A stretch of DNA of 40,256 nt from a virus, in IMG/VR virus record IMGVR_UViG_3300031456_000013, positions 1-40,256 of that record; one strand, written 5' to 3'. A program made the translations under genes and the position numbers. The notes below the pieces were generated by a model that worked only from the letters and a program-made list of their open reading frames with translations, was not told the DNA's origin and searched no databases. Below, piece after piece: positions 388 to 37,678 of the stretch. Each line of letters opens with the position of its first letter. The first letter of the stretch is position 1.

Positions 388-565
388 CACTGTCTTCGTT
401 ATTTTGTTGATTTTGAAGTTGTGTGGGATGACGGGTATCTCGTGGTGGTGGGTGTTTACTCCGTTGATATTCAGTGTGGCGATTAGTGCTTTAATTTTTG
501 CTATAGTGACGATGATTGGGGTGGTGGTGTGGTTGGCTGATGATGATAATAAGAGGGTTAGATAG
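353..565 (+). CDS. Small membrane protein with two predicted TM helices (holin or exclusion size class)
   Basis: Hydrophobic stretches LFSTVFVILLILKLCGM and VFTPLIFSVAISALIFAIVTMIGVVVWL are separated by GISWWW. Charged tail DDDNKRVR. Alternative start ATG 374. Confidence 0.6.
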   Translation: MNVRVKSMGLFSTVFVILLILKLCGMTGISWWWVFTPLIFSVAISALIFAIVTMIGVVVWLADDDNKRVR

Positions 566-1200
566 TGATTGTAGACTGTATTAGCGACCTCCACGGCAGT
601 TATCCGGAGCTAGAAGGGGGGGATCTGCTTATAGTAGCAGGTGATTTGACTGCTCGAGACACATTGAAGCAGCACCAGGAGTTCCAAGCGTGGTTGATTG
701 AGCAAAAGTACACAAAAAAGGTGTTAATTGCAGGGAATCACGACGGACAATACGAAAAGAGGGTGCCATTCTACACTTTTGAGACAGGGATCTGCTATTT
801 ACAGGACAGCGGCACGCAATTCGAAGGGCTAAACATTTGGGGCTCTCCTTGGACGCCGGAATTCTATAATTGGCACTTTATGCTCCCGAGAGGACGTCAA
901 CTGCGAGAGAAATGGGACTTAATTCCTGATAACACAGATATTCTAGTGACACATGGCCCTCCGTTAGGCATACTAGATGCGACTGATAATACTGTGAACA
1001 AGACGGAGAGGTTGGGTTGCGCTGATTTGAGGGATGCTGTTGAGCGAGTGAAGCCTAGGTTGCATGTTTTTGGGCACATACACGGGGGACATGGGCAATT
1101 GATGTTGAAGCATGAGGGGCCTAATACGTTGTGTGTGAATGCGGCTATTATGGACGAGGGTTACAGGCCAAGAAACAAGCCAATTAGGGTGATTTTATGA
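565..1200 (+). CDS. Calcineurin-like metallophosphoesterase (MPPED/239FB-like by eye)
   Basis: Motifs in canonical order: DxH (ISDLHG), GD (VAGDLT), GNHD (IAGNHDG), H (VTHGPP), GHxH (FGHIHGGHG). GTG start overlaps the previous stop (TAGTG). Confidence 0.85.
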   Translation: MIVDCISDLHGSYPELEGGDLLIVAGDLTARDTLKQHQEFQAWLIEQKYTKKVLIAGNHDGQYEKRVPFYTFETGICYLQDSGTQFEGLNIWGSPWTPEFYNWHFMLPRGRQLREKWDLIPDNTDILVTHGPPLGILDATDNTVNKTERLGCADLRDAVERVKPRLHVFGHIHGGHGQLMLKHEGPNTLCVNAAIMDEGYRPRNKPIRVIL

Positions 1201-1502
1201 TAGACAAGGAGTGGAGTGTTCTGACTGTTTTGCCTAACAATGGTGATCGATGTCTTTGCTATGGGTATAAGACTTTCTGCTGTGAACAGGATATGGACGA
1301 CGAACGCGAGTGGCATGAGGTGACTTTTTCTTTTCATATGGCCTGCTACAAGTTAAAGCAAGAGATCCCTCAAGACCCCGAAGAGTCTGTTTTGGAGAGT
1401 TATGACGCAATTGAATCTTGGGACATAGGCGAGGAATTTAGTGATGGTAGGGTGATTGGGGTGACAAAATGGAAACACTTACCTAGTAAGATAGAGGAGT
1501 AG
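1197..1502 (+). CDS. Hypothetical protein, DUF551-like C-terminus
   Basis: ATGA start/stop overlap with the phosphoesterase. C-terminal VIGVTKWKHLPSK resembles the DUF551 ending (VTHWMPLP type). Weak, by recollection. Confidence 0.6.
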   Translation: MIDKEWSVLTVLPNNGDRCLCYGYKTFCCEQDMDDEREWHEVTFSFHMACYKLKQEIPQDPEESVLESYDAIESWDIGEEFSDGRVIGVTKWKHLPSKIEE

Positions 1503-1503
1503 T

Positions 1504-2475
1504 ATGAGTGAAGGGTTAGTGTATGTCGGTAAAGTCGTACAATTGGATCAGATCCCAGACGCGCACTTTATTGCTTCAGCGACTGTGGTGTGCGGGAAGG
1601 GAGGGAAATGGAGAGGGATTGTTCGCAAGGATGAGTGTAGTGTAGGTCAAGAGTGTCTAGTGTATCTGCCTGATTCTGTTGTTCCTGAGTGTGATCAGAT
1701 GCGTTTCCTAGAAAAATACAAATGGCGAGTCCGGATGTGCAAGTTCCGTGGTGCGCCGAGTGAGGTATTGATAATGCCGATTCCTGAGTATAAAATATGG
1801 GAAGTTGTGGTAGGAACGGATGTCACTGCAGCTTGTGGGGTAACACGGTACTTTAAACCGATACCAGTTCATCTTCAAGGACTTGCGAAGGGACAGTTCC
1901 CTAGTTTCATCCCTAAGACTGACGAATTGAACTACCAGCGGCATGGGGATTTAGTAGAAGCGCTGCATGGCAAGCCGTATTACATCACAGAGAAAGCAGA
2001 CGGCTCATCGACTACTGCGTATAGGTACAAGGGAGAGTTTGGTATTTGTAGCAGGAACTTGGAGCTTGTGCGGGATGAAAACAATGGCTACTGGCAGGTG
2101 GCGAAGAAATATAGTGTAGAGGATAATCTTCCAGAGGGAATAGCGTTGCAGTGGGAGACTTGCGGGCCAAAGATACAAGGCAACCCGATGGGGCTTAAGC
2201 AAGGGGATGGTTTTGCTTTCAGTGCTTATAATATTCCAGAACATAGATACCTTACAATGGACGAGTTTCTTTCCTTGTGCCATACGATTAAGTTCCCTAC
2301 GGTCAGGTTAATAGAAGTTGCGCCAGAGTTTGACAAAGAAACAGTTGAAAAACTTGGTGAAGGTACGTATTGTAATGGAAAAGAGCGAGAAGGTGTGGTC
2401 GTTAGGTCCCAGGGTAATCAGATGGGTTGTTCGCCTGTCAGTTTCAAAGTAATCAACTTAAACTATGAGAAATAA
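1504..2475 (+). CDS. ATP-dependent RNA ligase, Rnl5-like architecture (N-terminal OB-like domain + nucleotidyltransferase domain)
   Basis: Motif I KxDG (ITEKADGSS), SRN (motif Ia-like), EGVVVRS (motif IV), SFKVINLNY (motif V-like, at the C-terminus). N-terminal VGKVVQLDQIPDAHFIASATVV...LVYLPDSVVPE looks like the OB domain of DraRnl/NgrRnl-type ligases. Confidence 0.8.
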   Translation: MSEGLVYVGKVVQLDQIPDAHFIASATVVCGKGGKWRGIVRKDECSVGQECLVYLPDSVVPECDQMRFLEKYKWRVRMCKFRGAPSEVLIMPIPEYKIWEVVVGTDVTAACGVTRYFKPIPVHLQGLAKGQFPSFIPKTDELNYQRHGDLVEALHGKPYYITEKADGSSTTAYRYKGEFGICSRNLELVRDENNGYWQVAKKYSVEDNLPEGIALQWETCGPKIQGNPMGLKQGDGFAFSAYNIPEHRYLTMDEFLSLCHTIKFPTVRLIEVAPEFDKETVEKLGEGTYCNGKEREGVVVRSQGNQMGCSPVSFKVINLNYEK

Positions 2476-2812
2476 GATGTATATGACGTCAGAGCTACAA
2501 CCTTGGGAAAAGGCGCTAATGTTAAAAATTGTGGAGGATTTGATGGCTTCTTGTGATTGTGATGATGAAGACCCTCGATATGATGACGAAGATGAGGTAA
2601 ATAGCCCAGATCACTACCAGTCAGACAATGGCATGGAAGCAATAGATGTGATAGAGGAATTTAATCTCAACTTTAACCTTGGCAATGTGGTAAAGTATGT
2701 GCTGCGAGCTGGGAAGAAGAGTGACAGCACGATTATAGACCTAAAGAAGGCACTCTGGTATCTGCAAAGAGAAATACATGCGCAAGAAGAAAACTGTAGA
2801 GGAAGAGATTAA
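2465..2812 (+). CDS. DUF3310-like phage protein
   Basis: SPDHYQSDNGMEAIDVIEEF...GNVVKYVLRAGKK...DLKKALWYLQREI matches the DUF3310 pattern as I recall it. Alternative start ATG 2477. Confidence 0.7.
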   Translation: MRNKMYMTSELQPWEKALMLKIVEDLMASCDCDDEDPRYDDEDEVNSPDHYQSDNGMEAIDVIEEFNLNFNLGNVVKYVLRAGKKSDSTIIDLKKALWYLQREIHAQEENCRGRD

Positions 2813-3089
2813 TGAATTTCTAAGGGTATTTGGCCAAAGGGATTTATCTAACTTGTTAACTGACATCCTGCCTTTGTTGGAGCTGTATAATGTAGACGCT
2901 AACAATGACTGGATTCGAGATGCTGTGGGTGAAGAAGATTGTCAAAACGTAAGACTGATTAGAACTGCCTACTTGGTTTCGTGGTTCTGTGAGATGCATG
3001 TGCCGAAGCTATGTTCAGTCAGGGCGCAGTTTAAGGACTTATGGAAGAGATTAGAGAAAGAAGGGGCGGCTAATGGGCACACTACCTGA
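2778..3089 (+). CDS. Hypothetical protein
   Basis: 103-aa ORF that overlaps both neighbouring genes in the operon. No motif recognised. Confidence 0.55.
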   Translation: MRKKKTVEEEINEFLRVFGQRDLSNLLTDILPLLELYNVDANNDWIRDAVGEEDCQNVRLIRTAYLVSWFCEMHVPKLCSVRAQFKDLWKRLEKEGAANGHTT

Positions 3090-3312
3090 TGGATTCTACG
3101 ATAGTTTAGATGAGCTGGCTTCGTGGCTGAGTTCTATAGATGACAAACTGGATAAACTTATAGAGGTGGCAATGGACAAGCAAATCAAGAAGATCCAAAA
3201 GGGTACTGAGAAGCTAGTGAAAGAAGAAGGCAAGCTGCTGAAAGAAGACAAGAAGCGCGATAAAGTGTGTGCTGCGGGCGAGAAAATGATGAAAGACAAG
3301 AAGAAAAAATGA
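3073..3312 (+). CDS. Hypothetical K/E-rich coiled-coil protein
   Basis: 79-aa ORF with a lysine-rich tail (KEEGKLLKEDKKRDK...KDKKKK). Overlaps the upstream ORF by 17 nt. Confidence 0.55.
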   Translation: MGTLPDGFYDSLDELASWLSSIDDKLDKLIEVAMDKQIKKIQKGTEKLVKEEGKLLKEDKKRDKVCAAGEKMMKDKKKK

Positions 3313-3396
3313 TTCCTTCTCTTTTGTGCACGATCTTGCTAGTAGCAGCCCTAGGTCCAGAAGGAGTACCATCACCACCACCAGTGAAAGGACCTA

Positions 3397-3594
3397 ATGG
3401 ACCAGCGCAACCAAGATGAACCGGAGTATTATGTCTGCTATTGCGAAGAGTGTGCCCCAAAGGTAGAAGCTCTGATAGCGAGATTAATGACTGGCAAGAA
3501 TATCGATGAGGACAAGGTAGCGCAGCTGTCTTTCATTGCTAAGTTTGTTAGAGAAGAAAAGAACTTAATACAAGTGTCAGGCAAGCCGCATTAG
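3397..3594 (+). CDS. Hypothetical protein
   Basis: 65-aa ORF with RBS-like AAAGGA 4 nt upstream. Its last 10 nt overlap the tRNA-like element. Confidence 0.5.
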   Translation: MDQRNQDEPEYYVCYCEECAPKVEALIARLMTGKNIDEDKVAQLSFIAKFVREEKNLIQVSGKPH

Positions 3595-3656
3595 CTCAGA
3601 AGTAGAGTTCCTGTTTTGTACTCAGGCGGTGGTGGGGGCGGTACCTACATGCGGCA
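3585..3656 (+). tRNA. tRNA-Thr(UGU)-like gene with non-canonical D- and T-loops
   Basis: Hand-folded 72-nt cloverleaf:
- Acceptor stem: GCCGCAT/ATGCGGC, 7 perfect bp.
- Positions 8-9: U8, A9.
- D stem: GCTC/GAGT. D loop: AGAAGTA.
- Anticodon stem: CCTG(T)/(T)CAGG. Anticodon loop: TT-TGT-AC, with U33 and A37.
- Variable loop: CGGTG.
- T stem: GTGGG/CCTAC, keeping G53-C61. T loop: GGCGGTA instead of TTCRANY.
- Discriminator: A73. No encoded CCA. Confidence 0.45.
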
Positions 3657-3715
3657 TACTGGCCTAGCTTCGGGTTCTCGGGGCACGTACGATAGGCTGG
3701 GGGAGACTAATAAAA

Positions 3716-3756
3716 GCAGCTGGGATGTCGCGACTGGCTCGGCTGCGTCTCTTTTT
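3716..3756 (+). terminator. Putative rho-independent terminator after the tRNA-like gene
   Basis: Stem GCAGCTGGG/CTCGGCTGC (9 bp, 2 G-U pairs), 13-nt loop, then GTCTCTTTTT. Confidence 0.4.
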
Positions 3757-3769
3757 AACTAGGATCGAT

Positions 3770-4066
3770 ATGACAAAGAAACACATGCTCGTAACCACTG
3801 AAAGTATGGGCGAGTTAGGTAAATGCTTCTCCAGTCCAGAAGAGATAGTGACTTTCCTTTCACAGATGGGTCAACTTGCTAAAGAGATAACATTCGCAGC
3901 AGAGATGAGGAACAAGGTGTCGGAGAAAGATGCTGTGTATGTGTCCCTGCGTCAGGTGTGTTTGTTTACGCTATTCTGCCGAGAGCACGTTGAGTTAGTT
4001 CAGCAGCTCATCAACACCGTCAAGATACAAGAGGTTACAGATGAAGAGCTAAAGGATTTCCAATAA
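3770..4066 (+). CDS. Hypothetical protein (98 aa from ATG 3770; the ORF opens at 3725)
   Basis: The ATG at 3725 lies inside the terminator hairpin. ATG 3770 follows AGGAtcgat. No motif recognised. Confidence 0.55.
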   Translation: MTKKHMLVTTESMGELGKCFSSPEEIVTFLSQMGQLAKEITFAAEMRNKVSEKDAVYVSLRQVCLFTLFCREHVELVQQLINTVKIQEVTDEELKDFQ

Positions 4067-4084
4067 TAGTGCCGACTAGCTTGT

Positions 4085-4113
4085 TTGTCAAATATTTTCT
4101 TTAAATGTATGAT
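4085..4113 (+). promoter_or_regulatory. Sigma70-like promoter in front of the late operon
   Basis: TTGTCA (4085-4090), 17-nt spacer, TATGAT (4108-4113). GGAGG RBS at 4164-4168 precedes ATG 4176. Confidence 0.45.
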
Positions 4114-4175
4114 CCGGTTGCTGGTGATTCGAGCCAGATAACAAGATAACACGGTATTCTACTGGGAGGTAGTCT

Positions 4176-4862
4176 ATGTGTAAGGAGCATAAATACGAAT
4201 GGAAACCATGCTGCGAACAAGGGCCTCAAGGGGTTCCTGGCATGCAAGGACCACAGGGTATCCAAGGGGTACAAGGCGTACAAGGCCCAACAGGTCAAAC
4301 AGGGGCACAAGGACCACAAGGGTTACAAGGCCCAGCAGGGAAAGATTGTGATTGCGACGAACAGAGATGCCAGTGTTGCGAAGCTCATGCCAACATATTC
4401 TCTCTTATGCCACAGTCTTTAACTGCATTTGGTTCAGCTACCGATACAGTTCTCTTCCAAAGCAACAACGCTGTTAGTGCAGGGGATTTTGATCTGGCGG
4501 CTATGTCTATAAATGGCGATATCAAGTTCCTTAAAGCAGGCGTATACTATATTAATTGCGCTATCGAAGCTAAAATAGGCCCTCCTATCCCTTCGCCAGT
4601 CCCTAGCTTTAGTTTTGGTTTGTGGTTGAATGGTGTATTAGTTCCTGGCAGTGTTGTTTCCGGGTTTACTCAAGCTCCTGATGACGATACTATCCAAGTG
4701 ACTTCAGAAGTTCAAATCAATGTAGCGGCAGGTGATATTCTTAGACTGCGTAATGCTTGCTCTAGTAATGTACTGCTAATACCTAATACTGCCGGGCTAA
4801 TGTTCCCAGTGACTTTAGCTAGCATCAATATCCACTGTCTCAAGGCTGCAGCAGTAATGTAG
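4176..4862 (+). CDS. Collagen-like protein with a Cys-rich collar and a C-terminal beta-rich (BclA/C1q-like) domain
   Basis: 13 uninterrupted G-X-Y triplets (GPQGVPGMQGPQGIQGVQGVQGPTGQTGAQGPQGLQGPA). They are flanked by KPCCEQ and DCDCDEQRCQCCE. About 160 aa of beta-type C-terminal sequence follow. Confidence 0.85.
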   Translation: MCKEHKYEWKPCCEQGPQGVPGMQGPQGIQGVQGVQGPTGQTGAQGPQGLQGPAGKDCDCDEQRCQCCEAHANIFSLMPQSLTAFGSATDTVLFQSNNAVSAGDFDLAAMSINGDIKFLKAGVYYINCAIEAKIGPPIPSPVPSFSFGLWLNGVLVPGSVVSGFTQAPDDDTIQVTSEVQINVAAGDILRLRNACSSNVLLIPNTAGLMFPVTLASINIHCLKAAAVM

Positions 4863-4919
4863 TCTAAAGAGGGATGGTGCACCTCGTTAAAAACGCACCT
4901 AACAAAACATTAAGGAACA

Positions 4920-6254
4920 ATGGCTAAGATTACGATACCATATGGATACCAGCCGCGTCACTATCAAGTAAAAATTTTAAATGCATTGGATAACGGATGC
5001 CGAAATGCATGTTGGATTGTCCATAGACGGGGTGGCAAGGACACTACGATGTGGAATTACATGATTAAGCGTGCCTACTTGGAGCCGGGTCAGTATTTCT
5101 ATTTCTTGCCCACGTTTGCACAGGCTAAGAAGGTGATATGGGATGGCATGACGAACAATGGCCGCCGCATGCTGGACTACATTCCGAAAGAGATTATAGT
5201 AGGCAACCCTAACAACACCGAGATGAAGGTCTGGATTAATGGTGCGCACGGGCAGAGCTTGATTCAATTGATCGGCGGGGACAGCTACGATAACGTCATG
5301 GGAACTAATCCGCGCGGCGTTGTATTTAGCGAATGGCCCCTGATGGACCCTATGGCGTATGAGTATATCAAGCCCATCTTGGCTGCGAATGGAGGGTGGG
5401 CGTCCTTTGTCTACACTCCACGGGGCAAAGGTAACCACGGGTGGGACTTGGCAGAAATCGCTAGGAGAAATCCGGATGAGTGGTTCTTCGAGACTCTGAC
5501 TGTCAGGGATACTCAAGTACTTACGGAAGAGCAAATTGATTCCGAAAGGCGTAAGGGTATGCCGGAGGACTTGATCCAACAAGAGTTCTACTGTAACTTT
5601 GATCGAGGTCAAGAGGGAAGCTACTACGGGCGCCAGATGGATGACTTGCGTAAGAAGGGCCAGATAGCGAAGGTGCCATATGACCCAGCTGTTCCTGTTA
5701 GGACATACTGGGACCTGGGAATTGGAGACAGCACAGCAATTTGGTTCGCTCAGTTCGTTGGAAAGGAAATTCATCTTATTAACTACTATGAGCAGAATGG
5801 TGAAGGATTAAGTCACTATGCGAGGATTTTGGATGAGTTTCGGAGAGAAACCGGATGCGTGTATGACCTAAATGTTGCTCCACATGACATTCAAGCCAGG
5901 GAGATGACAACAGGGATGACAAGACTCGAAACAGCTCGTCGGTTAGGGCTGAACTTCCGTGTTGCACCAAAGTTGAGCTTAGAATCTGGGATAGAAGCTG
6001 TCCGTATGACTCTCGCAAGATGCTGGTTTGATGAAAAGAGATGCGAATTGGGCCTGAAGTGTCTGTCGAACTACCGGAAGATGTACAACGAAAAGTACCG
6101 GGTTTATTCTGACAAGCCCCATCATGACAATTCAAGTCACGGGGCCGACGCGTTTCGGATGATGGCGATAACAGAGAATCAGTTCCGTCCTGACCGTGGT
6201 GTTGATGATGTGGACTATGATCGGATGAAGAATCTTTGGGGATGGAAGGTTTAA
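4920..6254 (+). CDS. terL: Terminase large subunit
   Basis: Walker A-like HRRGGKDTT. RNaseH-like nuclease motifs YWDLGIGDSTAIWF and HDNSSHGADAFRMM. 444 aa, upstream of the portal gene. Confidence 0.92.
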   Translation: MAKITIPYGYQPRHYQVKILNALDNGCRNACWIVHRRGGKDTTMWNYMIKRAYLEPGQYFYFLPTFAQAKKVIWDGMTNNGRRMLDYIPKEIIVGNPNNTEMKVWINGAHGQSLIQLIGGDSYDNVMGTNPRGVVFSEWPLMDPMAYEYIKPILAANGGWASFVYTPRGKGNHGWDLAEIARRNPDEWFFETLTVRDTQVLTEEQIDSERRKGMPEDLIQQEFYCNFDRGQEGSYYGRQMDDLRKKGQIAKVPYDPAVPVRTYWDLGIGDSTAIWFAQFVGKEIHLINYYEQNGEGLSHYARILDEFRRETGCVYDLNVAPHDIQAREMTTGMTRLETARRLGLNFRVAPKLSLESGIEAVRMTLARCWFDEKRCELGLKCLSNYRKMYNEKYRVYSDKPHHDNSSHGADAFRMMAITENQFRPDRGVDDVDYDRMKNLWGWKV

Positions 6255-6419
6255 TAGCCTCTAGCAGCTTGATAAATTCACCAGCCAGATTATGCATATC
6301 CGTGGCTAGCCTGCTTACTACTCCTGAGAGAAGAGTAACGTCTGTTTTACTAGCAAAATCGTTCATCATATCCTTCTTTTCGATACACAATAGCTCCCCA
6401 CGTAATTTCTCATCAACAT

Positions 6420-7466
6420 CTAATCGTCATAACCCTCAAACATCACTGCACCTAGGTTTATCTCGCCTGCATGTTCACGCTTCCCAAAGGCTTTGAGTTT
6501 GTCAATCAGGTAACTAACGAATTCTGCTTGGTCCATGTTGAAACTAATCTCTATCTCTGCTTTTCCGTTGTATATGATCGCGTATTTGTCTTTGATTTCC
6601 AGCGCGTTCCAGTGGTTAATCTTTTTAAATTCCTCTGCAAAAGCCTTGTTCGCTTCGGAGTTTTCGGTAGGGACATTTGCGTTGGTCTTGAGGAGTCGCT
6701 GCATATAGGCGCCTTTGGATTTGACTTTCTTGGCACAGCAGGCTTGGTACACTTCGTCTAATCTCTTCATAGGATATTGTTTTGCCCACCAGGCGAGTGT
6801 TTCTGTGGTTGTATCAATGCCGAGCGAGGAAAGCCATTGCAGTGTTTCAGATTGTTCCGCAGAGAGCTTAAACTTAGAAGAAAACAAAGTCCAATCAATG
6901 TGTAAACAAGGCAACGTCCCTCCAACGTCCTGATGCTTAACGGTTGGCTGCTCAGGAGGTTTAGCTGGCTCTGGAGTTATGAACTTTTCCACAGGCAACG
7001 AAGACAATGTCTTATCAAAGTCTAGTTCCGTCTTTGGTTGAGTAGTCTTTGGTAATAGAACAGGATCACCCGTAGCTGGTACACCCGTAGCTGGTACATC
7101 CTGTTCTGGTATCTTTTTTTGAAAATCCGGGTTCGGCATGGGGTAAACATCGTACCTATGGTGCCACTGTCCTTCAGCGTTTTGGTATTTGGTGTACTTG
7201 ACATAACCAGCGTCTCTCAGCTCTTTAATAAGTTTTTGTATAGCGTCTCTCTTGCCGCCTTTTTGGTTACCTATATAGATCTTAGCTAATTGCCATACAT
7301 GAACTTGCCAATTAGGGTCGCGAGACAAGATGTACCAAAGCAAACCTTTCGCTGCCCAAGATAGGTTAGGGTCTGCTGGCGTTGTGTTACTTGTAATGGT
7401 GAATTGAGAGTCTAATCGTACATTGTGGATAGTAGAAGTAGATGTGTTGGAAGGGGATGTGATCAT
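6420..7466 (-). CDS. Winged-helix replication-initiator-like / DnaD-like protein, reverse-oriented inside the late operon
   Basis: Strong RBS (AAGGAG, 7 nt, ATG). N-terminal LSWAAKGLLWYILS...WQLAKIY...AIQKLIKELRDAGYVKY winged-helix-like segment. P/T-rich linker. Helical C-terminal domain (LSAEQSETLQWLSSLGI...AYMQRLLK). Function is inferred only. Confidence 0.75.
   Translation of the reverse strand: MITSPSNTSTSTIHNVRLDSQFTITSNTTPADPNLSWAAKGLLWYILSRDPNWQVHVWQLAKIYIGNQKGGKRDAIQKLIKELRDAGYVKYTKYQNAEGQWHHRYDVYPMPNPDFQKKIPEQDVPATGVPATGDPVLLPKTTQPKTELDFDKTLSSLPVEKFITPEPAKPPEQPTVKHQDVGGTLPCLHIDWTLFSSKFKLSAEQSETLQWLSSLGIDTTTETLAWWAKQYPMKRLDEVYQACCAKKVKSKGAYMQRLLKTNANVPTENSEANKAFAEEFKKINHWNALEIKDKYAIIYNGKAEIEISFNMDQAEFVSYLIDKLKAFGKREHAGEINLGAVMFEGYDD
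7067..7096. repeat. Perfect 15-nt tandem duplication inside CDS 6420..7466
   Basis: CACCCGTAGCTGGTA occurs twice in tandem. It encodes the PATGVPATG repeat in the linker. Confidence 0.9.
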
Positions 7467-7498
7467 AGTGGTTCTCCTTGAGTGAATCTATGCTTCGC

Positions 7499-7587
7499 AA
7501 AAAATCCAGGAGGCCACTATAATCAAAGATGTCTAATTCTTCGATTATCTTTCTGTCAAAAGTGTGGGTTTTTTTCCTGGATTTTTT
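7499..7587. repeat. 13-bp perfect inverted repeat pair flanking the upstream region of the reversed gene
   Basis: AAAAAATCCAGGA (7499-7511) and TCCTGGATTTTTT (7575-7587), 63 nt apart. A perfect minus-strand TTGACA (7554-7559) lies between the arms. Confidence 0.85.
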
Positions 7588-7609
7588 GCTCAGCAAGTTA
7601 GCGGTTAAA

Positions 7610-7643
7610 AGCTCAATCCTTCGGGGTTGGGCTTTTCTGTTTT
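7610..7643 (+). terminator. Putative rho-independent terminator (plus strand)
   Basis: AGCTCAATCC-TTCG-GGGTTGGGCT (10-bp stem with 2 G-U pairs, tetraloop) followed by TTTCTGTTTT. The G-U pairs become C-A mismatches on the minus strand. Confidence 0.5.
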
Positions 7644-7732
7644 ATATACGTCTAAAAATACCTTACCTACCCCAATCTCGTCAAAGCCAAACTCAAGTGC
7701 ATAAACTTCTTGCATGTAAATTAAAAAAAAGC

Positions 7733-7762
7733 TTTACTCGCGTGTAGAATGTAAAGTAAAAT
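7733..7762 (+). promoter_or_regulatory. Weak candidate promoter for the portal operon
   Basis: TTTACT, 18-nt spacer, TAAAAT, about 22 nt upstream of ATG 7785. Confidence 0.25.
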
Positions 7763-7784
7763 ATTTAATGCAATAGGCCGCTGA

Positions 7785-9752
7785 ATGCCGATGGACTCCG
7801 ATATAGTCAGTGATTTTACGCAAGACTACAATCGCGCCTATATGCTTCTAAACACTTACTATGCAGAGGCTTATCGCGACGTTGGTTTCTATCTCGGAAA
7901 TCAGTGGAGCTTGGACCAGATGAAGTACTTGAATGACGAGCGGCGCAATTCGTTCACGTTTAACAAGTCGCGCAAGACTATCAACATGGTCAGCGGCTAC
8001 CTCAGTGCGAACCAAATGCAGAGCCAAGTCGTCGCGCGAGAGAACTCAAATCCTCAGACTGCAGCGCAACTTTCAGATTTACTTCAGACACAGATGCAGC
8101 CCAAAGGGTACAAGGCGATAAGTAAAGCCAAACACAACAGTCTAGTGTCTGGAGTTTGTTGGATTTCACCGTGGGTTGACTATCGACAAGACTATGTGAA
8201 TGGCCGAATCGATTTTCACCTGGACAATTGGAATGACGTCATTTGGGACCCATTCAGCAGCCGTATGGACCTCGAAGACTGCACGTTTGTGGCTAGACGC
8301 AAGTACCTTAGCAAGGACGTGATCAAGAGTTTAGTGCCTGGTTGTGAGAGAGAAGTCGATGCAATGGGCTACGGCAATAGGGACGAGAAGTTCACTTATG
8401 AGCCTTACGCACGCCAATGGGGTCTACAAGAGTTACTAGCCTACAACGAATATTGGAAGCAGCGATACAAAAAAGGCTGGCTACTGGTTGATAAGACAAC
8501 TGGGGAGCAGAAACCGTGGAAGGGCGACAAGAAGCGTTTGGACATGTTGAAGCAGTTCTTTCCGAACCTTGCAGTTATTGAGGGATACTATCGGACAGTC
8601 GAGTACAACATCATCGTGGAAAACCGTCTCTTGTATAGCGGTGAAGACCCTTGGGGCATTGGAGAGTATCCTTTTGTTCCCTACTACTGTGTATTTGACC
8701 CTTCGTATGACCTATTTCAATGGAAGATACAAGGGTTACAGAGGCTCCTGCGCGACTCTAACGAAGAATACAACATGCGCAAGAGCAAACTACTCGACAT
8801 CATGGATTCTCAGATCGGTAGTGGATGGAAAGCGAAGTCTGGAGCGGTATCTAACCCTAAAGCGCTGTTCCAAACTGGTCAGGGAAAGGTTGTCTTCTTT
8901 AACCCTGGCTTCGAGATATCTGACGCAGAGAGGATTGATCCACCCAATATTCCAGAGAGCTTGTTCGCGCTTCAAGAGTCATTCGATGCTGATATCAAGG
9001 ACTTTGTCGACTTAGGTGCGCTAGGGAGTGACCAGACCGACCGGATGAGTGCGATGCTGTTTAAGATGAAGCAAAGCATGGCCGTGATGCAGTTGGGTCC
9101 GATCATAGAGAATTTTAAAGAGGCCGACTACTTGCTGAACAAGAAAGTCCTCAAGATGATCCAAAAGTTCACGCCAGAGAAGGTAGAGCGGCTAATCAAA
9201 GAGCAACCAACGCCAGAGTTTTACAACGGCACATTCCTGGAATACGACATAGACTTCACTGAGATGCCTATGACTGACTACCAACGCCAGGCAGCCTTTA
9301 TGCAAGCTTGGACGATGAAGATGGGAGGTATGGACGTACCTGACGAATTGTTGTGGGAGATGTCACCGTACCCGATCAGCAAGAAGGGAATGCAACTGGT
9401 TCAACAAAGAGCACAAGCGGCACAGGCACAGCAGCAACAGGAACAAGAAGACAAGAAGCAAGTCAACGAACTCTTGCAAGCCAAAGCCTTCAGCGACATT
9501 TCCTTGGGAGAAGAGCGGCTTAGCAAGATCAAATACGACGCTGCATTGTCTGAAGAACGATTGGCAGCTGCGCAGGAAGAGAGAAGCCGCGGTGTGCTCA
9601 ACGAAGTCAGGGCGATTAAAGAGATGGACGAGATCGATATTAAGAACGCTGAGAAGCTGCTGACTATGATCCGAGGAATAGAAGAAGAGCAGAGGTTGGC
9701 TTCGGCACAAACAGTGGTTCCTCAACCGGCAGTTAGTGGGGCTAAAAAATGA
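7785..9752 (+). CDS. Portal protein
   Basis: 655 aa, the first large structural gene after terL. Long Q/E-rich helical C-terminal extension (QQRAQAAQAQQQQEQEDKK...) resembling a portal barrel. Confidence 0.88.
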   Translation: MPMDSDIVSDFTQDYNRAYMLLNTYYAEAYRDVGFYLGNQWSLDQMKYLNDERRNSFTFNKSRKTINMVSGYLSANQMQSQVVARENSNPQTAAQLSDLLQTQMQPKGYKAISKAKHNSLVSGVCWISPWVDYRQDYVNGRIDFHLDNWNDVIWDPFSSRMDLEDCTFVARRKYLSKDVIKSLVPGCEREVDAMGYGNRDEKFTYEPYARQWGLQELLAYNEYWKQRYKKGWLLVDKTTGEQKPWKGDKKRLDMLKQFFPNLAVIEGYYRTVEYNIIVENRLLYSGEDPWGIGEYPFVPYYCVFDPSYDLFQWKIQGLQRLLRDSNEEYNMRKSKLLDIMDSQIGSGWKAKSGAVSNPKALFQTGQGKVVFFNPGFEISDAERIDPPNIPESLFALQESFDADIKDFVDLGALGSDQTDRMSAMLFKMKQSMAVMQLGPIIENFKEADYLLNKKVLKMIQKFTPEKVERLIKEQPTPEFYNGTFLEYDIDFTEMPMTDYQRQAAFMQAWTMKMGGMDVPDELLWEMSPYPISKKGMQLVQQRAQAAQAQQQQEQEDKKQVNELLQAKAFSDISLGEERLSKIKYDAALSEERLAAAQEERSRGVLNEVRAIKEMDEIDIKNAEKLLTMIRGIEEEQRLASAQTVVPQPAVSGAKK

Positions 9753-36413: not shown

Positions 36414-36729
36414 GGCTCAACTCCTTAATTGCGTCTACCAATATTTCAACTTGCATCTCTAGGTTTTGTATGCGCTGATCTAACCGTTGATAAGGGCTTA
36501 GCTGTATAATCTCACTCAATCTCTTATTCTTCATCAACACTGCCCGCGCTTCTGCCTTAACCGCATTGTAGCTTTCTGCCCCTCCATTTCGTCTAACTTC
36601 TGATACTATAGTTGTTTTACTTCTTCCTATCTTCTTTGCTATCTTACCTAAGCTAAATTTCTCTCGAAGAAGCCGGTTTATCTCTCGCCGTTCATGTAAA
36701 CTTATCTTTTTCCCTCTAATATTTGTCAT
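36403..36729 (-). CDS. Small HTH DNA-binding protein (IS30-type HTH_38-like)
   Basis: LHERREINRLLREKFSLGKIAKKIGRSKTTIVSEVRRNGG. Overlaps both neighbouring genes. Confidence 0.7.
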   Translation of the reverse strand: MTNIRGKKISLHERREINRLLREKFSLGKIAKKIGRSKTTIVSEVRRNGGAESYNAVKAEARAVLMKNKRLSEIIQLSPYQRLDQRIQNLEMQVEILVDAIKELSHED

Positions 36730-37678
36730 CGTTTTCTTCCTCTAACAGCTCCTCCCAACCAAACGGCCTCACGTGCTCCGTTGTTGTCTTGCGCGGGTGA
36801 AAGTGCGTGAACATTTCCTCCATCTTGCTGCTGCTCAAATGTGTGTATCTCTGTGTGCTGGCTATCGTACTGTGCCCCAAAACCTCTTGAATCAACCGGA
36901 GATCTGCGCCAGAGTCCAGCAAGTGTGTAGCGCAAGCGTGCCGGAGGGTGTGCGTCGTCACCTGCTGCATGCCCGCTTTCTCTGCATAACCTACAACAAT
37001 CGCGCACAACAACTGCCTGCGTAACGGCTTGTCCATAATCGTGAGAAACAGCGCGCCTCGTTCATTGCCCCGGACTCCAGTAATGTAACGATCTACCCAT
37101 GCAAATGCCTCCGCTGTCACTGGCACCGTCCTTGTCTTGCTTCTCTTGCCACACGACACCATGACCTTGCGCGGGCCTATGTGGTGCAATTGTAGGCTGC
37201 AAAGCTCCGAGGCACGCAAACCCGATGAATATAGCAGCTCCAGTATTGCTCTGTCTCGTATCCCTATCTCTGTATTTGTATCCGGTTGCTCTAGTATCTT
37301 GCATATTTCCTCTACTGTTGGAATCCGTGGCGCTTTGATGTTGTTTTTTGGCGCCGTTATATTTTCCATTATGTCCGATACTAACACCTTGTTTATCCTC
37401 AAGTATTTACAGTAACTCTTCAAAGCCATGTAATACCGGTTGATACTTGCGTCGCTCTTACCGTTCAGCTTACAGTGGCCTAGGTAGTCGATTATATGCT
37501 TGCCTTTGATAGCTGCCGGCCGTTTGATATTGGTATGATCTTGCAAATACTCTATAAACCTGGAAATATCGTACTTGTATCCAGCTACAGTTTGTTGGCT
37601 CTTGCTTAATGACAGCTGCGCGATGAAACTGGCTAGCGATTCATCCATTGAGCTTAAAGTTGTCTTCGCTTGCTTCAT
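36716..37678 (-). CDS. int: Tyrosine recombinase, XerC/XerD-like
   Basis: Catalytic residues in order: R (SGLRASEL), HxxR (HTLRHACATHLL), H and Y (LGHSTIASTQRYTHL). SAM-like N-terminal domain. Confidence 0.92.
   Translation of the reverse strand: MKQAKTTLSSMDESLASFIAQLSLSKSQQTVAGYKYDISRFIEYLQDHTNIKRPAAIKGKHIIDYLGHCKLNGKSDASINRYYMALKSYCKYLRINKVLVSDIMENITAPKNNIKAPRIPTVEEICKILEQPDTNTEIGIRDRAILELLYSSGLRASELCSLQLHHIGPRKVMVSCGKRSKTRTVPVTAEAFAWVDRYITGVRGNERGALFLTIMDKPLRRQLLCAIVVGYAEKAGMQQVTTHTLRHACATHLLDSGADLRLIQEVLGHSTIASTQRYTHLSSSKMEEMFTHFHPRKTTTEHVRPFGWEELLEEENDDKY

What the first reader, a model, noticed from the sequence alone, without database searches (positions are those of the whole stretch)
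3585..3656. Cloverleaf tRNA-Thr(UGU)-like gene with degenerate D- and T-loops next to the RNA-repair genes
A 72-nt segment folds by hand into a full cloverleaf:
- 7-bp perfect acceptor stem, 4-bp D stem, 5-bp T stem retaining G53-C61.
- 7-nt anticodon loop with U33, anticodon UGU and A37.
- 5-nt variable loop and discriminator A73.

G1-C72, C2-G71, G35 and U36 are, as I recall, the E. coli ThrRS identity set, and all are present.

The tertiary-interaction elements are wrong, however. The D loop is AGAAGTA (no G18G19) and the T loop is GGCGGTA instead of TPsiCRA. The anticodon stem closes with a U-U pair.

Three readings are possible:
- A functional but atypical phage tRNA, perhaps one that escapes host tRNA-targeting nucleases. 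This fits its position 1.1 kb from the ligase cassette.
- A decaying tRNA pseudogene.
- A tRNA-derived recombination or priming element.

Its 5' end overlaps the last 10 nt of ORF 3397..3594, and a terminator-like hairpin follows at 3716-3756.
Basis: seen in the sequence. Interest (0 to 1): 0.6.

Follow-up and report, generated by a model that had tools for sequence, protein, structure and literature searches.

The report
Phage threonine tRNA with alternative elbow
This is a real threonine tRNA gene of a 40-kb phage whose odd-looking corner loops are not decay but a matched alternative design (A18 with G55, G54 with G58) that recurs in many phage tRNAs and in the only tRNA of this kind in a tiny bacterium, replacing contacts usually called universal in tRNA.

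Summary
Rfam's tRNA model hits exactly there (40.2 bits, cut-off 29); ARAGORN finds nothing.

The gene is the positional orthologue of the canonical tRNA-Thr(UGU) that sister phages carry in the same slot. Anticodon arm and T stem are identical to L099's copy. Every stem difference preserves pairing. Only the D and T loops are remodelled.

Those loops fit a coherent alternative elbow:
- Among 355 surveyed cloverleafs, position 18:55 is G:U (226), A:G (115), G:C (13) or C:G (1), never A:U or G:G.
- In the 139 G55 tRNAs (34 anticodons), 54:58 is U:A, A:U or G:G.
- The window's exact T loop, GGCGGUA, occurs in 8 other phage tRNAs.
- A model built from alt-elbow tRNAs scores the window 66.6 bits; a matched canonical model scores it 43.3.

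A Levyibacteriota genome's only UGU-anticodon tRNA has this elbow, so the design can serve translation. ACA is the phage's most-used Thr codon.

Best reading: a working elongator tRNA (about 0.68). The nuclease-escape idea is untested. This copy is a singleton, and the closest phage lacks it.

Earlier follow-ups in this scan reported the same A18/G55 class on other DNA. I found no published description.

The parts
3585..3656 (+). tRNA-Thr(UGU) gene, 72 nt, no encoded CCA
   Evidence: Rfam RF00005 gives 40.2 bits end to end. The alt-elbow model R1 gives 66.6 bits and the canonical model R2 43.3 bits. My elbow-agnostic cloverleaf finder scores 20 of 21 stem pairs, and it is the only hit in the window once the U8/A14/U33/R37/C56 filters are applied.
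3598..3604 (+). D loop AGAAGUA, read as A14 G15 A A18 G19 U20 A21: G18 replaced by A, G19 kept
   Evidence: Infernal alignment. The same 7-mer occurs in 37 unique alt-elbow tRNAs. In the survey A18 always goes with G55, 115 of 115.
3617..3619 (+). Anticodon UGU, within loop UUUGUAC (3615-3621), closed by U31.U39
   Evidence: The anticodon arm is 17/17 identical to the canonical orthologue in L099. U31.U39 with C38 is typical of the family's Thr(UGU) genes.
3637..3643 (+). T loop GGCGGUA: G54 G55 C56 G57 G58 U59 A60. G55 pairs in class with A18, and G54:G58 replaces U54.A58
   Evidence: The identical 7-mer is present in 8 other unique phage tRNAs, and 29 tRNAs fall in the G54:G58 subclass.
3680..3729 (+). 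Conserved element just downstream of the family's tRNA slot, function unknown; it shows positional orthology with L099's tRNA-Thr
   Evidence: blastn gives 84% over 50 nt to L099:4887-4935, plus weaker matches in L004, L082, L007 and L003. Collinear alignment.
3701..3758 (+). Long hairpin followed by UUUUU; weak candidate terminator
   Evidence: Folds but is not significant against shuffles, and is not called by the terminator scan.
3073..3312 (+). Conserved 79-aa gene forming the upstream border of the family's tRNA slot
   Evidence: tblastn hits across family loci. No Pfam or PHROG match.
3770..4066 (+). Conserved 98-aa gene forming the downstream border of the tRNA slot
   Evidence: tblastn hits across family loci from residue 16 of the longer ORF. 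No PHROG match.
3397..3594 (+). Orphan 65-aa ORF (CxCxxC) overlapping the tRNA 5' end by 10 nt; doubtful as a gene
   Evidence: No homologue in any family locus, in Pfam or PHROGs, or in GenBank phages. Absent from the closest phage, L002.
565..2475 (+). Context: metallophosphoesterase (565-1200) and RNA ligase (1504-2475) upstream on the same strand
   Evidence: Pfam PF00149, PF09414 and PF21189.

Best explanation
Window 3585-3656 (+) is a genuine phage-encoded elongator tRNA-Thr(UGU) gene. It sits in the slot where sister phages carry variable tRNA sets, between a conserved 79-aa gene and the gene upstream of the collagen-like and terminase genes. It is the positional orthologue of their canonical tRNA-Thr(UGU).

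In this lineage the elbow was switched as a unit to a recurrent alternative architecture:
- A18 with G55, instead of G18 with U/Psi55.
- G19-C56 kept.
- G54 with G58, instead of U54.A58.
- G53-C61 kept.

All four stems and the core tertiary partners stayed intact (U8-A14, A9 with U12-A23, G46 with C13-G22).

Inferred mechanism, none of it shown here:
1. The gene is transcribed with the plus-strand operon that includes the RNA-repair genes.
2. Host RNase P cuts the 5' end.
3. The 3' end is trimmed and CCA is added by the host enzyme, because CCA is not encoded.
4. Host ThrRS charges it through G1-C72, C2-G71, G35 and U36.
5. EF-Tu carries it. Its T stem is identical to that of the canonical orthologues.
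6. It reads ACA, the phage's most-used Thr codon.

This elbow has no U54, U55 or A58. It therefore cannot receive the usual m5U54, Psi55 or m1A58 modifications, and it presents a different surface to elbow-reading factors.

Why the switch happened is unknown. It may be a near-neutral alternative state or an adaptation to an elbow-reading host factor.
For: It is a tRNA:
- Rfam tRNA hit above the cut-off at the exact coordinates, and the only Rfam hit in the genome.

It is orthologous to canonical genes:
- Against L099:4764-4836 the anticodon arm is 17/17 and the T stem 10/10 identical.
- All six acceptor and D-stem substitutions preserve pairing, including G5-C68 to C5-G68.
- The 3' flank is collinear at 84%.
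- The tRNA is 84% identical outside the two loops but about 40% within them.
- The slot lies between conserved genes.
- Thr(UGU) is the family's commonest cargo tRNA, with 8 variants.

The loops are an organised alternative:
- The window's D arm used as a search pattern retrieved other tRNAs whose unconstrained T loops all had G55.
- In 355 cloverleafs, 18:55 is G:U 226, A:G 115, G:C 13, C:G 1, with no A:U or G:G (Fisher p about 1e-96, not corrected for relatedness).
- In 139 G55 tRNAs (34 anticodons, 121 loci), 54:58 is U:A 59, A:U 49, G:G 29.
- GGCGGUA occurs in 8 other tRNAs.
- Models built without the window or any Thr(UGU): window 66.6 bits (alt) against 43.3 (canonical). The canonical orthologues reverse, at 40-48 against 57-64.

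The design can work in translation:
- In Levyibacteriota genome G076 the only UGU-anticodon tRNA has this elbow, among about 45 otherwise canonical tRNAs.
- Some phages build several isoacceptors this way.
- Alt-elbow Tyr-type tRNAs persist in at least 9 loci of this phage family.

Codon match and identity:
- ACA is 38% of the phage's Thr codons (311/810), the top Thr codon.
- Threonine identity lies in acceptor pairs plus anticodon bases (PMC9976931). G1-C72, C2-G71, G35 and U36 are present.
Against: - This exact version is a singleton. There was no second copy in IMG/VR or the JGI metagenomes using three patterns, and none in GenBank phages. Conservation of this copy cannot be shown.
- The closest phage, L002 (95% identity in the 444-aa terminase large subunit), lacks the tRNA altogether, so it is dispensable.
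- ARAGORN rejects it and the general Rfam score is modest.
- No promoter or terminator is predicted nearby.
- The Levitt pair would be G15:G48, which is uncommon: 5 cases in the alt class.
- An ORF overlaps the 5' end.
- There are no expression, charging or structural data.
- The host is unknown, so tolerance of this elbow by the host's RNase P, CCA enzyme and ribosome is inferred only.
- The surveyed loci were fetched with the window's own D-arm pattern. That inflates the D-arm contribution to the R1 score, though not the T-loop part.
Confidence: 0.68

Rival explanations
1. A recently inactivated tRNA gene. The elbow change, or the G15:G48 combination, makes it non-functional in this phage's host, and the intact stems only reflect how recent the event is.
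For: It is a singleton. The closest phage has lost the whole tRNA segment, so selection on it is weak. ARAGORN finds no tRNA. The Rfam score is 20-30 bits below the family's canonical tRNAs. All 8 other family Thr(UGU) variants keep canonical elbows.
Against: - Random decay would not land on both a D loop and a T loop that are exact members of the alternative class. The 31 observed alt T loops cover 0.19% of 7-mer space.
- A18:G55, G19-C56, G54:G58 and G53-C61 are satisfied at once.
- No stem pair is broken, although the tRNA outside the loops is 16% diverged from the orthologue and every one of the six stem substitutions preserves pairing.
- The window scores 66.6 bits on the alt-elbow model.
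Confidence: 0.17
2. A tRNA used outside ribosomal decoding. It could be a decoy or spare substrate tied to the neighbouring RNA-repair genes and host tRNA nucleases. It could also be an aminoacyl donor kept off the ribosome, as with the staphylococcal non-proteogenic tRNA-Gly species, which also have G55.
For: It lies 1.1 kb downstream of the metallophosphoesterase and RNA-ligase pair on the same strand. S. aureus non-proteogenic tRNA-Gly genes have TGC/TGT instead of TTC in the T loop and lack Psi55 (PMC7826273). Phage tRNAs are known to evolve to evade host anticodon nucleases (PMC10264068, seen; title and abstract only).
Against: - The T stem, which sets EF-Tu affinity, is identical to that of the canonical orthologues.
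- The anticodon loop is a normal 7-nt loop identical to the orthologues'.
- ACA is the phage's top Thr codon.
- The same elbow serves as the only tRNA-Thr(UGU) of a cellular genome.
- It occurs in 34 anticodon types, which fits general decoding.
- Pfam scans of 13 of the window's ORFs (10 in 565-9752 and 3 near the integrase) showed no aminoacyl-tRNA transferase. The rest of the genome was not scanned.
Confidence: 0.1
3. A tRNA-derived attP, recombination or priming element rather than an expressed tRNA.
For: The phage encodes a tyrosine integrase (PF00589, 36716-37678), and many integrases target tRNA genes (general knowledge).
Against: - The integrase lies about 6 kb away across the 127-bp terminal repeat junction and about 33 kb away in the linear map.
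- The element is a complete cloverleaf, not a 3' tRNA fragment.
- It occupies a slot that holds 0-5 different tRNAs (Asn, Thr, Glu, His, Ala, Tyr and others) in sister phages. That is cargo behaviour, not an attachment site.
Confidence: 0.02

Closest known systems
Canonical phage-encoded tRNA-Thr(UGU) of sister phages, e.g. L099:4764-4836 and L015:2900-2972
   Same: Same slot and same 3' flank. Identical anticodon arm (including U31.U39 and C38) and identical T stem. Same length class, no encoded CCA, and G1-C72.
   Different: The sister copies have G18G19 D loops (AAUUGGUA, AUCUGGUA) and UUCGA T loops. They score 57-64 bits on the canonical model against 40-48 on the alt model. The window is the reverse.
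A18:G55 alternative-elbow tRNAs of phage tRNA clusters and Patescibacteria, e.g. L116:4924-4995 Thr, L194:8809-8879 Ile, and Levyibacteriota G076:C2:32772-32843 Thr(UGU)
   Same: D loop A-R-A-A-G-U-A and T loop N-G55-C56-R. 54:58 is restricted to U:A, A:U or G:G. The cloverleaf is otherwise normal, and ARAGORN often misses them.
   Different: The window combines AGAAGUA with GGCGGUA and G53-C61. In the survey AGAAGUA mostly goes with UGCRA or GGCAGAA, and GGCGGUA mostly with AAAAGUA. The window's Levitt pair is G15:G48 rather than G15:C48 or A15:C48. The window copy has no close relatives that share its elbow.
Staphylococcus aureus and S. epidermidis non-proteogenic tRNA-Gly (PMC7826273)
   Same: Bacterial tRNAs that naturally carry G55 (TGC/TGT instead of TTC), lack Psi55, and have a non-G at a G18/G19 position (D19).
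   Different: Those tRNAs are diverted from the ribosome to FemXAB peptidoglycan synthesis and have EF-Tu-weakening features. Here the T stem equals that of the canonical orthologues, G19-C56 is kept, no Fem-type transferase was seen in the 13 ORFs scanned, and the class spans 34 anticodons.
Eukaryotic initiator tRNA-Met T loop, with the A54-A58 purine-purine Hoogsteen pair (PMC7912444)
   Same: A precedent for a purine-purine 54:58 pair replacing U54.A58 within an otherwise normal T-loop fold.
   Different: That pair is A:A and is found with U55 and G18 intact, in initiators only. Here it is G:G together with A18:G55, in an elongator.
Phage tRNAs that evade host anticodon nucleases through anticodon-loop changes (PMC10264068)
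   Same: A phage cargo tRNA that differs from the expected host-type tRNA at normally conserved positions. It also lies close to RNA-repair genes.
   Different: The change here is in the elbow, not in the anticodon loop. No nuclease, cleavage site or resistance has been shown.

Membership tests
tRNA (Rfam RF00005) | Covariance-model score at or above the curated gathering score, full-length match | tested here: met
   40.2 bits against 29, model positions 1-71 of 71, at 3585-3656 (+).
tRNA (Rfam RF00005) | Cloverleaf with 7/4/5/5-bp stems, plus U8, A14, U33, R37, C56 and G53-C61 | tested here: met
   20 of 21 pairs, with only U31.U39 unpaired. All listed invariants are present.
tRNA (Rfam RF00005) | Canonical elbow residues G18, U54, U55 and A58 | tested here: not met
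   The window has A18, G54, G55 and G58. These are the residues replaced by the alternative set.
tRNA-Thr(UGU) isoacceptor | Anticodon UGU in a 7-nt loop, and homology to bona fide tRNA-Thr(UGU) | tested here: met
   Anticodon at 3617-3619. Anticodon arm 17/17 and T stem 10/10 identical to L099's ARAGORN- and Rfam-called tRNA-Thr.
tRNA-Thr(UGU) isoacceptor | ThrRS identity elements (acceptor pairs 1-72 and 2-71; G35 and U36) | tested here: met
   G1-C72, C2-G71, G35 and U36 are present in the sequence. The review PMC9976931 confirms that acceptor pairs plus anticodon bases are the determinants. The exact E. coli set is from my own knowledge.
tRNA-Thr(UGU) isoacceptor | Actual threonylation and ACA decoding | not testable with these tools
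   This needs acid-gel or tRNA-seq data, or in-vitro charging. Only the codon-usage match (ACA 38% of Thr codons) is available.
A18:G55 alternative-elbow tRNA class (defined empirically here and in earlier scan notes) | A at 18 together with G at 55, with G19-C56 kept | tested here: met
   The window has A18, G19, G55 and C56. The class rule held in 115 of 115 A18 cloverleafs, and G55 appeared in 0 of 239 G18 cloverleafs.
A18:G55 alternative-elbow tRNA class (defined empirically here and in earlier scan notes) | 54:58 is one of U:A, A:U or G:G | tested here: met
   The window is G54:G58. The class counts are 59, 49 and 29, with 2 others. The identical loop GGCGGUA occurs in 8 other tRNAs.
A18:G55 alternative-elbow tRNA class (defined empirically here and in earlier scan notes) | Scores better on a model of the class than on a matched canonical model | tested here: met
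   R1 gives 66.6 bits and R2 43.3. The held-out alt Thr genes behave the same way, and the canonical orthologues the opposite way. Caveat: the D arm is enriched in the training loci by the way they were fetched.
A18:G55 alternative-elbow tRNA class (defined empirically here and in earlier scan notes) | Conservation of the gene, with its elbow, in related genomes | tested here: not met
   No second copy was found. L002 lacks the gene.
Non-proteogenic (Fem-type) tRNA, as S. aureus tRNA-Gly NP | G55 in place of U55 in the T loop | tested here: met
   The T loop is GGCGGUA. The NP tRNA-Gly genes have TGC/TGT (PMC7826273).
Non-proteogenic (Fem-type) tRNA, as S. aureus tRNA-Gly NP | Sequence features that lower EF-Tu binding, and a partner aminoacyl-tRNA transferase | tested here: inconclusive
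   The T stem is identical to that of the canonical orthologues. No transferase domain was found in the 13 ORFs scanned. EF-Tu affinity was not measured and the rest of the genome was not scanned.
tRNA pseudogene | Broken stems or loop sequences drifting without pattern | tested here: not met
   No stem pair has been lost relative to the orthologues. Both loops match the class consensus.
Integrase attachment site (attP) derived from a tRNA | Lies next to the integrase gene and consists of a partial tRNA segment | tested here: not met
   The integrase is at 36716-37678 (-), about 6 kb away across the terminal repeat junction. The element is a full-length cloverleaf.

The most novel reading that the evidence does not exclude
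The elbow switch is adaptive rather than neutral. This phage lineage converted its own canonical tRNA-Thr(UGU) in place to the A18:G55 / G54:G58 elbow. The converted tRNA would escape a host factor that reads or cuts the canonical T-loop/D-loop corner, or that depends on m5U54/Psi55. It would work alongside the adjacent RNA-repair cassette as a counter-defence.
Probability: 0.12. Interest if true: 0.8.

Novelty: new variant of a known kind. Interest (0 to 1): 0.5.

Why it matters
G18-Psi55 and T54-A58 are taught as near-universal tRNA contacts, and gene finders rely on them. ARAGORN missed this gene. It also missed the only tRNA-Thr(UGU) of a Levyibacteriota genome.

The survey shows a second, rule-bound way to build the tRNA corner. 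A18 goes with G55, and 54:58 is U:A, A:U or G:G. This design occurs across 34 anticodons in phages and small-genome bacteria. I could not find it described in the open literature.

This window adds a natural matched pair. Two orthologous phage tRNA-Thr(UGU) genes have identical anticodon arms and T stems, and they differ mainly in the elbow, plus pair-preserving stem changes and three variable-loop bases. That makes the consequences of the switch directly testable: RNase P, the CCA-adding enzyme, TrmA and TruB, EF-Tu, ribosome L1-stalk contacts, T-box riboswitches and tRNA-targeting defence nucleases.

In practice, phage and CPR tRNA sets annotated with elbow-dependent tools are probably incomplete.

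Tried and rejected
- ARAGORN on the window and on 39 relatives. It misses alt-elbow genes, so I used Rfam plus my own elbow-agnostic cloverleaf finder. Its first version gave chance hits until the U8/A14/U33/R37/C56 filters were added.
- GenBank phage searches with the region, the tRNA itself, an Ile(GAU) alt-elbow tRNA and the 65-aa ORF. None gave a useful match.
- A GGCGGUA-type tRNA-Ile led to Xanthomonas phages X1 and BUDD. Their copy has G18G19 and U55 with only A54:U58 swapped, so it does not place the full alt elbow in a cultured phage.
- An exact T-arm pattern, a metagenome scan and a looser Thr-loop plus alt-T-arm pattern found no second copy of the window's version.
- The first mixed-length alignments, A3 and A4, put the length gap inside the T stem. 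I discarded them for model building and rebuilt from 72-nt sequences only.
- I looked for a second in-family elbow switch in tRNA-Tyr. The alt and canonical Tyr genes are not close relatives, so nothing can be inferred.
- Literature searches for G18/G55, A18/G55 and phage T-loop variants found no description of the class. The dedicated T-loop review does not mention G54 or G55.
- I rejected three readings: random decay, attP, and the overlapping ORF as a constraint. The ORF has no homologues anywhere I searched.
Full report
**What is there**

The window is a complete 40,256-bp IMG/VR phage genome. A 127-bp direct repeat joins its two ends.

- a 7-bp acceptor stem;
- a 4-bp D stem with D loop AGAAGUA;
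- a 5-bp anticodon stem closed by U31.U39, with loop UUUGUAC and anticodon UGU;
- a 5-nt variable loop;
- a 5-bp T stem with G53-C61 and T loop GGCGGUA;
- discriminator A73, with no encoded CCA.

Rfam's tRNA model matches end to end at exactly these coordinates with 40.2 bits (gathering score 29). It is the only Rfam hit in the genome. ARAGORN reports nothing.

**Context**

Upstream on the same strand lie a metallophosphoesterase (565-1200), an RNA ligase with an N-terminal OB domain (1504-2475) and a DUF3310 protein. Downstream are a collagen-repeat protein, the large terminase (4920-6254, phrog_2) and a P22-type portal.

I fetched 39 related phage loci through the ligase and 46 through the terminase, with some records in both sets. 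Rfam scans of the 74 distinct relative records behind them found tRNAs in 39.

The relatives' tRNAs lie 2-3 kb downstream of the ligase. Where I mapped the two bordering genes, they sit between homologues of the window's 79-aa gene (3073-3312) and of the gene starting at 3770. The window's tRNA occupies the same slot.

The 65-aa ORF that overlaps its 5' end has no homologue in any family locus, Pfam, PHROGs or GenBank phages. I doubt it is a gene.

The closest phage, L002 (ligase 81% identical, terminase 95%), is collinear on both sides. It lacks both the ORF and the tRNA and has a terminator-like hairpin there instead.

**Orthology with canonical tRNA-Thr(UGU)**

Thr(UGU) is the tRNA this family carries most often: 8 sequence variants, all with canonical elbows except the window's.

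Against L099:4764-4836 the comparison runs as follows:
- The anticodon arm is 17/17 identical and the T stem 10/10.
- Acceptor pair 2 changes from U.G to C-G.
- Acceptor pair 5 changes from G-C to C-G, on both sides.
- Acceptor pair 6 changes from G.U to A-U.
- D-stem pairs 10-25 and 11-24 also change.
- All five changed pairs stay paired.

The 3' flank (3680-3729) matches the flank of L099's tRNA at 84%.

Outside the D and T loops the two tRNAs are 48/57 identical, the same 84% as the flank. Inside the two loops only about 6 of 15 positions agree. The divergence is therefore concentrated in the elbow.

The U31.U39 'mismatch' and C38 are shared by most of the family's canonical Thr(UGU) genes. 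They are rare in other Thr(UGU) genes I collected. They are a family trait, not damage.

**The loops are an alternative elbow, not decay**

I used the window's D arm plus a UGU loop as a search pattern. It returned 15 viral contigs and 16 bacterial contigs (Patescibacteria and small 'Gammaproteobacteria' MAGs). In the copies that parsed as good cloverleafs, the unconstrained T loops all carried G55.

With an elbow-agnostic cloverleaf finder I collected 917 unique cloverleafs from all fetched loci.

For the 355 with a 7-nt D loop and a short variable loop, positions 18:55 were:

| 18:55 | Count |
|---|---|
| G:U | 226 |
| A:G | 115 |
| G:C | 13 |
| C:G | 1 |
| A:U | 0 |
| G:G | 0 |

G19:C56 held in 343 of these.

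Among the 139 G55 tRNAs (34 anticodons, 121 loci), 54:58 was U:A in 59, A:U in 49, G:G in 29 and something else in 2. Canonical tRNAs had U:A in 710 of 733.

The window (A18:G55, G19-C56, G54:G58, G53-C61) obeys every rule. Its exact T loop occurs in 8 other phage tRNAs and its exact D loop in 37.

The 31 alt-class T loops cover 0.19% of 7-mer space. Random drift from UUCGAAU is therefore a poor explanation.

**Quantitative membership test**

I built two covariance models from 27 gap-free 72-nt tRNAs each, alt-elbow and canonical. Both excluded the window and all Thr(UGU) genes.

| tRNA | Alt model R1 (bits) | Canonical model R2 (bits) |
|---|---|---|
| Window 3585-3656 | 66.6 | 43.3 |
| L099 Thr (canonical orthologue) | 41.4 | 57.1 |
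| L015 Thr (canonical orthologue) | 48.4 | 64.0 |
| L010 Thr (canonical orthologue) | 40.1 | 58.4 |
| L116 Thr (held-out alt) | 77.6 | 63.7 |
| Levyibacteriota G076 Thr (held-out alt) | 79.4 | 52.9 |

One caveat applies. The loci were fetched with the window's D-arm pattern, so the D arm contributes to R1 by construction. The T loop does not.

**Can such a tRNA work?**

- In Levyibacteriota genome G076 (0.8 Mb, 46 Rfam tRNA hits) the only tRNA with a UGU anticodon has the AGAAGUA/UGCAAGA elbow. The other 44 ARAGORN-called tRNAs are canonical, and ARAGORN misses this one. If that genome decodes ACA, it does so with this design.
- In the L116 and L129 clusters only Thr has the alt elbow. Other phages (L194, L197, L211, L212) build several isoacceptors with the G54:G58 form.
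- Within the window's own family, alt-elbow Tyr-type tRNAs persist in at least 9 loci.
- In the window phage ACA is the top Thr codon: 311 of 810, or 38%. That is the highest A-ending share among its four-codon boxes.
- Threonine identity rests on acceptor pairs and anticodon bases (PMC9976931). G1-C72, C2-G71, G35 and U36 are present.

**Most likely mechanism**

The sequence shows, and the comparisons support, a structurally coherent tRNA-Thr(UGU) of the alternative-elbow class, orthologous to canonical cargo tRNAs.

The following steps are inferred:
1. co-transcription with the plus-strand operon;
2. RNase P 5' processing;
3. host CCA addition;
4. charging by ThrRS;
5. EF-Tu delivery, since the T stem is unchanged;
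6. reading of ACA.

Also inferred: the tRNA cannot carry m5U54, Psi55 or m1A58, and it shows a different face to elbow-reading factors. The reason for the switch is open.

**Rivals**

- Recent inactivation (about 0.17) stays possible. This copy is a singleton and L002 has lost the gene. It does not explain the exact fit to the class rules or the unbroken stems.
- A non-decoding role (about 0.10) is suggested by the RNA-repair neighbours and by the G55-bearing non-proteogenic tRNA-Gly of staphylococci (PMC7826273). The unchanged T stem and anticodon arm, the codon match and the cellular example argue for ordinary decoding.
- An attP role (about 0.02) does not fit. The integrase is at 36716-37678, about 6 kb away across the repeat junction, and the slot holds varied tRNA cargo in sister phages.

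**Novelty**

My literature searches found no description of an A18:G55 tRNA class. A dedicated T-loop review mentions neither G54 nor G55, though it does describe the A54-A58 purine pair of eukaryotic initiators. The library covers open-access papers only.

Earlier follow-ups in this scan reported the same class on other DNA: CPR tRNA-Cys and initiators, SAR11 tRNA-Thr and phage clusters. I reached it independently, and my counts agree with theirs.

What this window adds:
- the G54:G58 subclass in a Thr(UGU) gene;
- a natural orthologous pair that differs mainly in the elbow.

I rate it a new variant of a known kind, with interest 0.5.

Noticed in passing
L034:5192-5282 and L035:5192-5282 (also L259): A ~91-nt tRNA-like sequence in the window's phage family. 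It has D loop AAAAGUA, T loop UGCAAGU, a 7/7 acceptor stem and a 5/5 T stem, but about 19 extra nt in the anticodon region. Rfam did not call it. It may be an intron-containing or otherwise interrupted alt-elbow tRNA.
   Followed up: no
G009:C1:10282-10386, G014:C1:5317-5421, G011:C1:18914-19018, G019:C1:5029-5137, G057:C1:4981-5088, G053:C1:773-881: Several relatives have Rfam tRNA hits of about 105-109 nt (36-42 bits, full model coverage). These are tRNAs with a ~33-nt insertion, possibly introns.
   Followed up: no
Family Thr(UGU) genes, e.g. L099:4764-4836, L015:2900-2972, window 3610-3626: Most Thr(UGU) genes of this phage family share an unusual anticodon arm: U31.U39 and C38 (or G38). 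Of 51 other Thr(UGU) genes collected, 48 have A38 and most have a Watson-Crick 31:39 pair. This family-wide anticodon-arm peculiarity might relate to anticodon-nuclease evasion.
   Followed up: partly
window 3680-3729; L099:4887-4935; L004:7575-7612; L082:4855-4886: A conserved ~50-nt element (core GGGGCACGUACGAU.G.CUGGGGGAGA.UAAUAAA) lies between the tRNA slot and the next gene across the family. It may be a promoter, regulatory site or processing signal.
   Followed up: partly
L092:1359-1439 (identical in L093, L020, L047, L063, L069, L142): An alt-elbow tRNA with a long variable arm (D loop AGUAGACAA, T loop UGCAAAU) whose anticodon parses as GCA. ARAGORN labels the region in L020 'tRNA-???'. 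Its identity (Tyr-like body, Cys anticodon) is unclear.
   Followed up: no
L262 (tRNA with anticodon CUA): An alt-elbow tRNA (AAAAGUA / GGCAGAA) with a CUA anticodon, that is, an amber-suppressor-type phage tRNA.
   Followed up: no
Survey of all fetched loci: Two further elbow covariations appear. G18 with C55 (T loop UCCGAUU) occurs 13 times, and A19 with U56 (D loop AAUGAUA with T loop UUUGAUU) occurs 7 times.
   Followed up: no
L305:5999-6069 (Xanthomonas phage X1, OQ427096.1 142566-142636): A cultured jumbo phage's annotated tRNA-Ile has G18G19 and U55 but a swapped A54:U58 pair (T loop AUCGUUA). A tRNA-Gln and a tRNA-Glu in the same cluster also start their T loops with A54. This may be an intermediate state between the canonical and alt elbows.
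   Followed up: partly
G076:C2:32772-32843 (L289:1373-1444): ARAGORN fails to call the only tRNA-Thr(UGU) of this Levyibacteriota genome. Elbow-dependent tRNA finders would therefore report a missing ACA decoder in such genomes.
   Followed up: yes
window 3397-3594: An orphan 65-aa ORF with a CxCxxC motif. It is unique to this phage, fills the space where sister phages carry further tRNAs, and its stop codon is formed by tRNA positions 8-10.
   Followed up: partly
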